From: Octopus vulgaris
Taxonomy: Eukaryota
Length of the DNA: 64,000 nucleotides
Direction: 5' to 3'
Assembly: GCA_951406725.2 (NCBI GenBank)
Contig: OX597827.1
Location: 72,168,001 to 72,232,000, forward strand
How positions within the stretch are numbered: position 1 is the stretch's first letter; each line of letters starts with the position of its first letter. Under the pieces are notes generated by a model. It searched no databases and was not told where the DNA came from. It saw only the letters and a list, made by a program, of their open reading frames with translations. The position numbers were made by a program, and so were the translations under genes. Positions 42,153-45,628 of the stretch are shown one piece after another.

Positions 42153-43533
42153 GTACAAATTCTTGTACAACGCTTTCTTTTCTTTTTTTTAATTTTAAAA
42201 TCTTTTGTTTTCATTATGGATAATATATGAAGGCAGCGAGCTGGCAGAATTGTTAGCATGCCGGGCGAAATGCTTAGCAGTATTTCGCCTGTCATTATGT
42301 TCTGTGTTTAAATTTGCCGAGGTCAACTTTGTCTTTCATCCTTTCAGGGTTGATAAAATGAGTACCAGTTACACACTGGGGTTGATGTAATCAACTTAAT
42401 CCCTTCCGCCAAAATTTGAGGCCTTGTGCTTTCAGTAGAAAGGATTATTAATAATGTGTGTGTGTGTGTGTGTGTTAGTATGAGAAAGCTGAATGTGTTT
42501 CAATCGTTGGACTGCAGCCATGATGGGGTACCACCTTGAAGGGTTTGGCGAACAAATCAACTTTAGGCCTTTTTTTAAACCTAATACTTATTCTATCAGT
42601 CTCTTTTGCTGATCTGCTAAGTTTCCGAGACACAAACACACCAATACTGATTGTCAAGTAGTGGTGGTGGTGGTGGAATAAGTTCAGACATAAACACAAA
42701 CACACACACACACACACAGAGGCAAAAATATAGACGTCACTAAAGTGAACAAGGGCACTAATCAGCGCCAGTATTGCTAGAAATAAGAGTTAAAACAACT
42801 CAATAGCCACAAAAGCACTATCTTAATGAGCTGACAATGGAGACAAGCTCCCTATGGTCGAGGATAGAGCCAGATGAGCGATGATTTCACATGTTGATGC
42901 TTAATGCATCTTAACACTCATCAGTGGTTCTCACCACGCCTAGGGTTAAACACATCTTACCTTGTCAGCTTATAAACTTATATATACCAAATCAACTCAC
43001 AAGGCTCTGATTGGCCCGAGGTTATAGCTGAAGACGCTTGCCCAAGGTGCCATATGCTATGGGACTGAATCCAGAACTCTGTAATTGGAAAGATAGCTTC
43101 TTATTTCTTTATTCCCCACAAGGGGCTAAACATAGAGGGGACAAACAAGGACAGACAAGATTAAGTCAATTACATCAACCCCGAAAGGATGAAAGGCAAA
43201 GTCGACCTCGGTGGAATTTGAACTCAGAACATAGTGCCAGACGAAATACGGCTATGCATTTCGTCCAGCGTGCTAATGTTTCTGCCAGCTCACTGCCCTT
43301 TTTTTTTTTTTTTATCTCAGATATTTAGGTCCTTAATTTCTTTTTCAGACAGGGATAACAACAAAGTCATCACAGAAATCTAGCTTCTTACCACACTAGA
43401 CAAAGCACAACTTCGCACACATAAAAAGAACAAAGAAATAGCATAAATACTCCTCCAAAACTCCCAGTTTGTAGTCTTGTACTGTATGTTAGATGGTATT
43501 GTCATAGTTGTTTTGTTTGTCTGTTTATTGCAG

Positions 43534-43752
43534 GAGTTCAGCCCTTCTATTTTGAAAGAGTGTATCTCTTTAGGCACCTTATGCACTCTTGAACAACACC
43601 GGATGGACGAGATGTCATCATGTTTACGTGGTGAACCTGTGAATATGTCTCGCTCATCCGAAGTCACATACGAACCACTGTTCCAGGCTGCCCAGCTCAT
43701 GCTCTTCCGACACATTAACAGCGTGATTAATATGCTCCCTGTTCCACACCAG
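43534..43752 (+). CDS. HTT: HTT exon 30
   Basis: ttgcag|...CAG|gtaag; EFSPSILKECISLG...PLFQAAQ...LPVPHQ. Confidence 0.93.
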
Positions 43753-45628
43753 GTAAGTGCTTTTACTTTCTACCTTTTCTTTTGTTTTTTTTCTTACTCT
43801 TTACTCTTTTTACTCTTTTACTTGTTTCAGTCATTTGACTGTGGCCATGCTGGAGCACTGCCTTTAGTCGAGCAAATCGACCCCAGGACTTATTCTTTGT
43901 AAGCCTACTACTTATTCTATCAGTCTCTTTTGCTGAACCGCTAAGTTACGGGGATGTAAACACACCAGCATCGGTTGTCAAGCGATGTTGGGGAGACAAA
44001 CACAGACGCACAAACACACACACACACACACGCACTCACGAGTGCGATGCCATGATAGATCATTAGCCACTACACACATTTTTTTCTCTTTTTGTTTTCT
44101 GTTTCCCTTTCTGTAGAAGAGCATAGGCTCGAAACATAAAAGACTTATTCTGTTCCTGAGTGTTATACTAATACATCTGTTTGTTTTGTACACCACCCGT
44201 CTTCGTCTTTTGTATTTTTCCATAAATTTTCCCTATATATACACTCACATACATACATATATGTGACGGGCCTCTTTCAGTTTCCGTCTACTAAATCCAT
44301 TCACAAGGTTTTGGTCGGGCCAAAGGCTATAGTAGAAGGCACTTGCCCAAGATGCCATGCAGTGGGACTGAACATGGGACCATGTGGTTCGTAAGCAAGC
44401 TACTTACCACACAGCAACCCCTACACTTATTTAACCATTTTTTACTGTCCCTAGTTTGAATCCTGTCAGGCCTTAACTATGCATAACTCTAGTTTGTTTA
44501 GCCACGGCAACTCATACCAGACAGGAGCATCATCATTATTATCATCATCATAATCATTTAATGTCTATTTTTCATGCTGGTATGGGTTAGACGGTTCAAC
44601 TGCAGCTGCAGAAGGCTCTTTTTTGTTTGGTTTCTATGGCCATATTCCTTTCCTAACATCAGTCATTTTGCAGAGTACCCTACATGCCTTTTATGTGTCA
44701 CCAGTACAGGTGCCTTTTACATGGCAGCGGCACAGAGGCCTTTTATGTGTCACCAGCACAGGTGCCTTTTACATGGCAGCGGCACAGAGGCCTTTTATGT
44801 GTCACCAGCACAGGTGCCTTTTACATGGCACCGGCACAGAGGCCTTTTATGTGTCACCAAGCACAGGTGCCTTTTACATGACACTGGCATGGCTGTGTAA
44901 ATATTTTTGTTGACATCATAAGAATTGGTAAACTTTTAAGAGAATGTAAAATAATTTTTTTGTTGGAACATTGTATCTCGAAGCACAACACATAAAGCTA
45001 TAAATAACAGCATTACATATTGGATTGAAAAATTCATTTTGGACAGAAAATCAAAGGCTTTTTGTGGGATATGAATTCACATCTGTAGACAGCCTTCAAT
45101 TTTTTCTATCCAAAAAGGCATTTTTTAACCCAAAATTTACATGAAGGCACGTGGCTTAGTGGTTAGGGCATTCGGCTCATGATCGAAGGTTGTGAGTTCA
45201 ATTCCCAGTGACACATTGTCTCCTTGAGCAAGACACTTTATTTCACATTGATCCAGTCCACTCAGCTGGCAAAATTGAGTTGTACCTGTATTTCAAAAGG
45301 GCCAGCTTTGTCACATTCTATGTCACACTGATCCTCTCTGAGAACTATGTTAAAGGCACACCTGTCTCTGGAATACTCAGCCACTTGCACATTAATTTCA
45401 CAAGCAAGCTGTTCTTGTGAATTGGATCAATTCGGTCATCGTCATAACCAATAAAGTGCCTGTTATTTACATGCTATTATTTATAGCCTTATGTGTGCTT
45501 CAAGATTCTCTGTTCCAGGACAGTAAATATCTTTTTGTCAGAAAAATTTGAATCTTCTGCAACATCTATTTTCAATTTTACATTTTCTCTCTCTTTTTTC
45601 TTTTTCTTCACCCTCTCCTTTTTTTCAG

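What the first reader, a model, noticed from the sequence alone, without database searches (positions are those of the whole stretch)
42866..42931. Candidate type I hammerhead ribozyme with intact core inside a unique insert carried by a SINE
Seen on the minus strand: AGAACCA-CTGATGA-GTGTTAAGATGC attaa GCATCAACATGT-GAAA-T catcgctc ATC-TGGCTCT. CUGAUGA and GAAA are intact and the cleavage triplet is AUC. Stem I pairs at 6 of 7 positions, stem II has a GAUGC/GCAUC helix plus a G-U-rich base, and stem III is only 2 bp. Established: minimal-stem-III type I hammerheads occur in Penelope-like elements and retrozymes. The motif sits in a ~260-nt sequence unique in this window (42720-42982), inserted next to the internal (CA)n of a minus-strand SINE1 copy. 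It is therefore co-oriented with the SINE and antisense to HTT. Inference: a SINE carrying ribozyme cargo, or a retrozyme/PLE relic. Weak points are G10.1-U11.1 instead of G-C and a non-palindromic loop III.
Basis: partly seen in the sequence, partly recalled or inferred. Interest (0 to 1): 0.72.

Follow-up and report, generated by a model that had tools for sequence, protein, structure and literature searches.

The report
Decayed retrozyme copy in huntingtin intron
This is one worn, clipped copy of an old family of small jumping repeats with hundreds of genomic copies that carry a self-cutting RNA motif; it sits inside a SINE rather than being carried by one, and this copy is predicted to be inactive.

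Summary
The hammerhead motif is real (42866-42931, minus strand; 3 of 200 shuffled windows give one). The 'unique insert' is not unique and is not SINE cargo. It is positions 61-316 of a ~344-nt non-coding repeat unit: 150 of 150 scored genome hits match its ribozyme model, and none of 29 other loci lies inside a split SINE. Copies close head-to-tail, form mirror-image 5'-truncated pairs and mostly end in microsatellites, the insertion footprint of Penelope-like elements (PLEs). No PLE ORF was found attached. Divergent subfamilies and a second family keep the core, the stems (28 of 33 pairs change on both sides) and a palindromic stem III, so the ancestral ribozyme was selected. Genomic copies then decayed neutrally (core 9.1% vs other 9.4% mismatch). 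Verdict: a relic of a non-LTR retrozyme, antisense in a huntingtin intron. The scan has noted other, younger retrozyme families of this type on other DNA; this family was not in its index.

The parts
42866..42931 (-). Type I hammerhead motif, decayed (core intact; G10.1-U11.1; stem III palindrome broken)
42850..42945 (-). Extended stem I closing the ribozyme domain, with a 2x2 internal loop 7 bp from the core
   Evidence: model R1, 109.7 bits; this copy was in the training set
42720..42975 (-). Retrozyme fragment: unit positions 61-316 of a ~344-nt unit, clipped at both ends, one ribozyme only
42873..42880 (-). 8-nt stretch with two private substitutions (42878, 42876) that pairs with 42922-42915 and is predicted to trap the catalytic core
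42490..42719 (-). 3' half of the host SINE, starting with its (TG)n tract
42985..43103 (-). 5' half of the host SINE (B-box part)
43104..43380 (-). Second insertion into the host SINE head: snoR38-like C/D snoRNA copy, A-tract and a second SINE type, flanked by a 10-nt duplication (43390-43381 and 43103-43094)
42153..43534 (+). Huntingtin intron (presumed limits) that holds all of the above

Best explanation
The motif is a type I hammerhead inside a clipped copy of a multi-copy, non-coding ~344-nt repeat that was likely spread by Penelope-type reverse transcriptase/endonuclease, and this copy is predicted to be catalytically dead. Shown: the family, its self-closed unit map, its insertion footprint, covariation across subfamilies, neutral decay within the family, and the nested position in a SINE. 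Inferred for the ancestral element: a transcript longer than one unit was cut by hammerheads pairing through the palindromic stem III (double-hammerhead mode); the unit probably circularised; a PLE enzyme cut (TA)n-type DNA and copied the RNA from fixed points near unit positions 308 and 350, running past one unit length or leaving a mirror-image second arm. One such event hit the internal microsatellite of an old SINE in the huntingtin intron. Afterwards CpG decay (C11.1 to U) and two changes in stem III removed the palindrome and created a competing helix.
For: Family: 55 matches from 40 scored of 1516 candidates; 150 of 150 scored with model R1; 822 exact matches of a 19-mer, 0 for its control (at least 2 of the 30 viewed look unrelated). 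Footprint in 45 distinct loci: 15 partial head-to-tail, 16 with an inverted piece, 26 with either; 30 end in a microsatellite against 21% of random flank positions; 21 end at unit >=337 and 15 at 297-317. In 7 of 20 mirror-image composites one arm ends at 348-350 and the other at 300-308, like the one-sided 30-40 bp tail of PLEs (PMC8557442). Head-to-tail joints in DNA contigs of run X2. Covariation over subfamilies and family B: 82% of cells paired, 28 of 33 pairs changed on both sides, 0 of 500 shuffles as high, slid controls 36-39%. Stem III is a perfect even palindrome (G-U allowed) in 23 of 35 distinct rows, with different sequences of 10, 12 and 14 nt. Intact copy L007 cofolds as a double hammerhead (-53.3 vs -44.0 kcal/mol for two monomers); the window copy does not. 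Freeing the core costs 9.8 kcal/mol here vs 3.6 in L007, 35th of 38. RT + GIY-YIG ORFs exist in the genome.
Against: No cleavage, circle or transcript was shown. No autonomous partner shares sequence with the unit (30 + 8 PLE loci). No array of more than about two units was seen, whereas described retrozymes are often multimers. Alignment A2 was fitted to the model and its rows are related, which inflates covariation. Within the main family the covariation is weak and largely CpG decay. Folding energies ignore tertiary contacts and Mg2+, and even intact copies have a non-hammerhead monomer minimum.
Confidence: 0.85

Rival explanations
1. The unit is the terminal repeat (pLTR) of an autonomous Penelope-like element, and these are 5'-truncated stumps.
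For: Same footprint; PLE pLTRs carry hammerheads with small palindromic helix III (PMC4209133); the genome is rich in PLEs.
Against: Where copies extend upstream of unit position 1 they continue with the unit's own 3' end, not an element body. A PLE protein search of loci L001-L154 hit only one family locus, L128, where a fragment lies after another PLE's end. One PLE protein was used as query, so a distant or extinct partner could be missed.
Confidence: 0.08
2. This copy still cleaves, or has been recruited, in an antisense or read-through transcript in the huntingtin intron.
For: Core intact and long stem I kept. The upstream second SINE has A- and B-box-like motifs (read by eye), and the first T4 run on the minus strand comes after the ribozyme, at 42814.
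Against: G10.1-U11.1, broken palindrome, predicted core trap, single ribozyme. An intact core is common among decayed copies. Being antisense it cannot cut huntingtin pre-mRNA in cis.
Confidence: 0.05
3. A SINE subfamily carries the ribozyme as cargo.
For: Co-oriented and inside a SINE here.
Against: 0 of 29 other loci; SINE sequence lost at the junction; another SINE at 43795-44420 has a different insertion at the same internal tract.
Confidence: 0.01
4. Chance motif, or a C/D snoRNA / miRNA-like hairpin.
For: UGAUGA resembles a C box; the region folds well (z -4.4).
Against: No D box at the 3' end; no Rfam match on the motif; family-wide hammerhead covariation.
Confidence: 0.01

Closest known systems
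Metazoan non-LTR retrozymes (Cervera and de la Pena 2020, PMC7229834; Li, Clavereau and Pollet 2026, 10.64898/2026.07.22.740005)
   Same: 150-450-bp non-coding unit with a type I hammerhead, multi-copy, head-to-tail junctions, predicted self-paired circle (z -3.7); mussel units are 350-390 bp.
   Different: Old and dispersed (median 12% from the family majority), mostly 1-1.5 units rather than arrays; circRNA not shown; 4-bp stem III from a 10-14-nt palindrome; stem II interrupted by an AA/AR internal loop.
Penelope-like elements and their pLTR hammerheads (PMC4209133, PMC8557442)
   Same: 5' truncation, partial tandems, inverted arms, one-sided tail, microsatellite targets, palindromic stem III.
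   Different: No RT/GIY-YIG ORF; full-size rather than minimal hammerhead; no sequence link found to the PLEs examined.
Rfam hammerhead families (Hammerhead_1, HH9, HH10; names from the finding and recall)
   Same: Catalytic core and three-helix topology.
   Different: No Rfam hammerhead model matched at E<=10.

Membership tests
Type I hammerhead ribozyme | Core CUGANGA, GAAA, NUH | tested here: met
   15 of 38 aligned copies keep it, 4 of them picked for it
Type I hammerhead ribozyme | Three helices, stem I formed by the two ends | tested here: met
   86% of cells paired vs 29-40% slid
Type I hammerhead ribozyme | G10.1-C11.1 pair, in this copy | tested here: not met
   G-U here; G-C in 22 of 38 family copies
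Type I hammerhead ribozyme | Palindromic stem/loop III for dimer cleavage, in this copy | tested here: not met
   2 mismatches here; met across the families
Type I hammerhead ribozyme | Loop 1-loop 2 tertiary contact | tested here: inconclusive
   Internal loops in stems I and II are kept in both families, but no contact was modelled
Type I hammerhead ribozyme | Self-cleavage | not testable with these tools
   needs an assay
Non-LTR retrozyme | 150-450-bp non-coding unit with a type I hammerhead | tested here: met
   ~344 nt; no attached PLE ORF
Non-LTR retrozyme | Head-to-tail repeats | tested here: met
   Partial tandems in 15 of 45 loci; two consecutive ribozymes in L022 and L112/L113; the window copy is a sub-unit fragment
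Non-LTR retrozyme | Expressed as circular RNA | not testable with these tools
   Only assembled contigs were available
Autonomous Penelope-like element | RT + GIY-YIG ORF in the element | tested here: not met
PLE-type insertion | 5' truncation, inverted arm, one-sided tail, microsatellite target | tested here: met
SINE subfamily with cargo | Insert recurs between the same SINE halves | tested here: not met
   0 of 29

The most novel reading that the evidence does not exclude
These families are a fossil series of circular-RNA parasites of Penelope enzymes with a hammerhead variant that Rfam misses: internal loop to internal loop contact between stems I and II, and 10-14-nt palindromes that may act as family-specific dimerisation keys, so that each subfamily is cut only with its own kind.
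Probability: 0.2. Interest if true: 0.6.

Novelty: new member of a known kind. Interest (0 to 1): 0.27.

Why it matters
For this locus, little: it is a decayed insertion. The family adds an unlisted retrozyme lineage whose insertion footprint fits the proposed link between animal retrozymes and Penelope-like elements. It also gives a natural set of covarying hammerheads for testing palindrome-dependent dimer cleavage, and shows that Rfam models miss this architecture.

Tried and rejected
Rfam scans gave no hammerhead hit. A PLE-thumb Pfam accession recalled from memory was not in the library. Search for an autonomous partner: 30 GIY-YIG loci and 8 longer PLE stretches share nothing significant with the unit; a cluster of copies on C11 looks like a duplicated locus without a PLE ORF. 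Sequencing runs: no RNA holder listed. Three runs guessed to be RNA held 78, 41 and 20 short pieces and no listed joint; no silent control was laid, so this says nothing on expression. Within-family covariation was set aside as mostly CpG decay. One piece starts at the cleavage site (L082, unit 164); a single case, not counted. Rows dropped: 1 of 39 candidates (a junction piece of L015) was left out of alignment A1; loci duplicated between searches were removed before the counts; 50 of 99 open frames were scanned; 46 of the loci then held were searched. Whether this insertion is shared with other species was not tested. Literature: 5 searches showed no paper on this family; subscription papers and all supplements, where it could be listed, were not seen.

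Full report
Observation. The motif is at the stated place on the minus strand, with the cut site between 42873 and 42872. A descriptor of my own finds only this site in the window, and 3 of 200 shuffled windows give a hit. Rfam gave no hammerhead match. Pfam places huntingtin exons on the plus strand on both sides, so the motif is intronic and antisense. That the animal is an octopus is my recall of its repeats; no call established it.

The insert is a mobile family. It has no second copy in the window, but the genome search returned 55 matches, the 40 best at 81-88% identity apart from the self match. A covariance model matched 150 of 150 scored candidates, and a 19-mer occurs 822 times against 0 for its control; these are lower bounds or mixed counts, not copy numbers. 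Contigs from four other organism labels cover a 236-nt family stretch in all 30 bins at >=80% likeness, and copies differ from the family majority by a median 12%, so the family is old. The unit is about 344 nt and closes on itself: sequence upstream of position 1 is the unit's own 3' end. The window holds positions 61-316.

The SINE is the target. None of the 29 other loci has the element between SINE halves. Here part of the SINE before its microsatellite is lost. The SINE head is split again by a snoRNA-A-tract-SINE insertion with a 10-nt duplication, which separates the host's promoter boxes (read by eye). A neighbouring SINE has a different insertion at the same internal tract.

Insertion footprint. 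Of 45 distinct loci, 15 have a partial tandem, 16 an inverted piece, and 30 end in a microsatellite (background 21%); 3' ends cluster near unit 308 and 350. In 7 of 20 mirror-image composites one arm uses each end. Craig et al. (PMC8557442, passages read) describe these features for PLEs. The genome holds many RT + GIY-YIG ORFs, but none examined shares sequence with the unit, so the partner is unidentified.

The ancestral ribozyme was selected. The family majority has G10.1-C11.1 and a 12-nt palindrome in stem III. Divergent subfamilies and a second ~350-nt family found through a weak model hit keep the same layout with other sequences. On their joint alignment 28 of 33 pairs change on both sides, no shuffle of 500 reaches this, and slid controls fall to 36-39% paired; the alignment was fitted to the model, so this is an upper view. 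Stem III stays palindromic in 23 of 35 rows while changing sequence and length. Cervera and de la Pena (PMC4209133, passages read) link such palindromes to dimer cleavage and list G10.1-C11.1 as highly conserved.

This copy is probably dead. Within the family the core mutates as fast as other non-CpG sites (9.1% vs 9.4%), so an intact core is expected in a fair share of relics. The window copy has U11.1 and two stem III changes seen in 1 of 38 copies each. These make positions 42880-42873 complementary to the core strand, and the predicted fold buries the core. Freeing it costs 9.8 kcal/mol (35th of 38), or 20.0 with stems enforced (37th of 38). It has one ribozyme and no palindrome for a dimer. 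These are 2D predictions, not assays.

Comparison and verdict. It works like, and by the features tested belongs with, metazoan non-LTR retrozymes (PMC7229834, parts 2-3 of 6 read; 10.64898/2026.07.22.740005, part 1 of 5 read); circular RNA is untested. A repeat annotation of an octopus genome has no occurrence of 'ribozyme', 'hammerhead' or 'retrozyme' in its main text (PMC13282606, term search), while 235 hammerhead-1 hits were reported in giant squid (PMC6962438, passage). Earlier notes of this scan describe younger families of the same type; this sequence had no match among them. New member of a known kind, and an ordinary decayed copy.

Noticed in passing
window 43104-43390 (-); L156, L157, L158: snoR38-like C/D snoRNA copy followed by an A-tract and a SINE, with a 10-nt target-site duplication. 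A second such snoRNA-A-tract-SINE copy is at L156; two tail-less, likely parental copies are L157 and L158.
   Followed up: partly
window 42880-42873 and 42922-42915 (-): The two private substitutions make an exact inverted repeat of the family-majority core strand, as a template-switch (quasi-palindrome) mutation would; inference only.
   Followed up: partly
L135-L154: Second ~350-nt hammerhead repeat family with the same layout, AUA cleavage triplet, 10-nt palindrome and (TA)n ends; 61 matches from 40 scored of 182 candidates.
   Followed up: partly
window 44040-44240 (+), motif near 44116: Fragment of a likely PLE end with a decayed minimal-hammerhead-like motif, inserted in the internal microsatellite of another SINE; a similar sequence follows a PLE ORF in L128.
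   Followed up: partly
alignment A1: 8 of 38 copies have C instead of U at core position 4, and this variant makes up 14-40% of depth in four other organisms: possibly a subfamily that spread with an atypical core.
   Followed up: no
L002:1681-1704: A ~24-nt segment is far more widely shared than the rest of the unit (about ten times the contig depth) and is kept across divergent subfamilies; possible cis signal.
   Followed up: partly
L159-L162: Young ~4-kb PLE with a 781-aa open frame, up to 99% identical between copies, ending in (TA)n; near its 3' end is a hammerhead-like core starting UUGAUAA (seen by eye).
   Followed up: no
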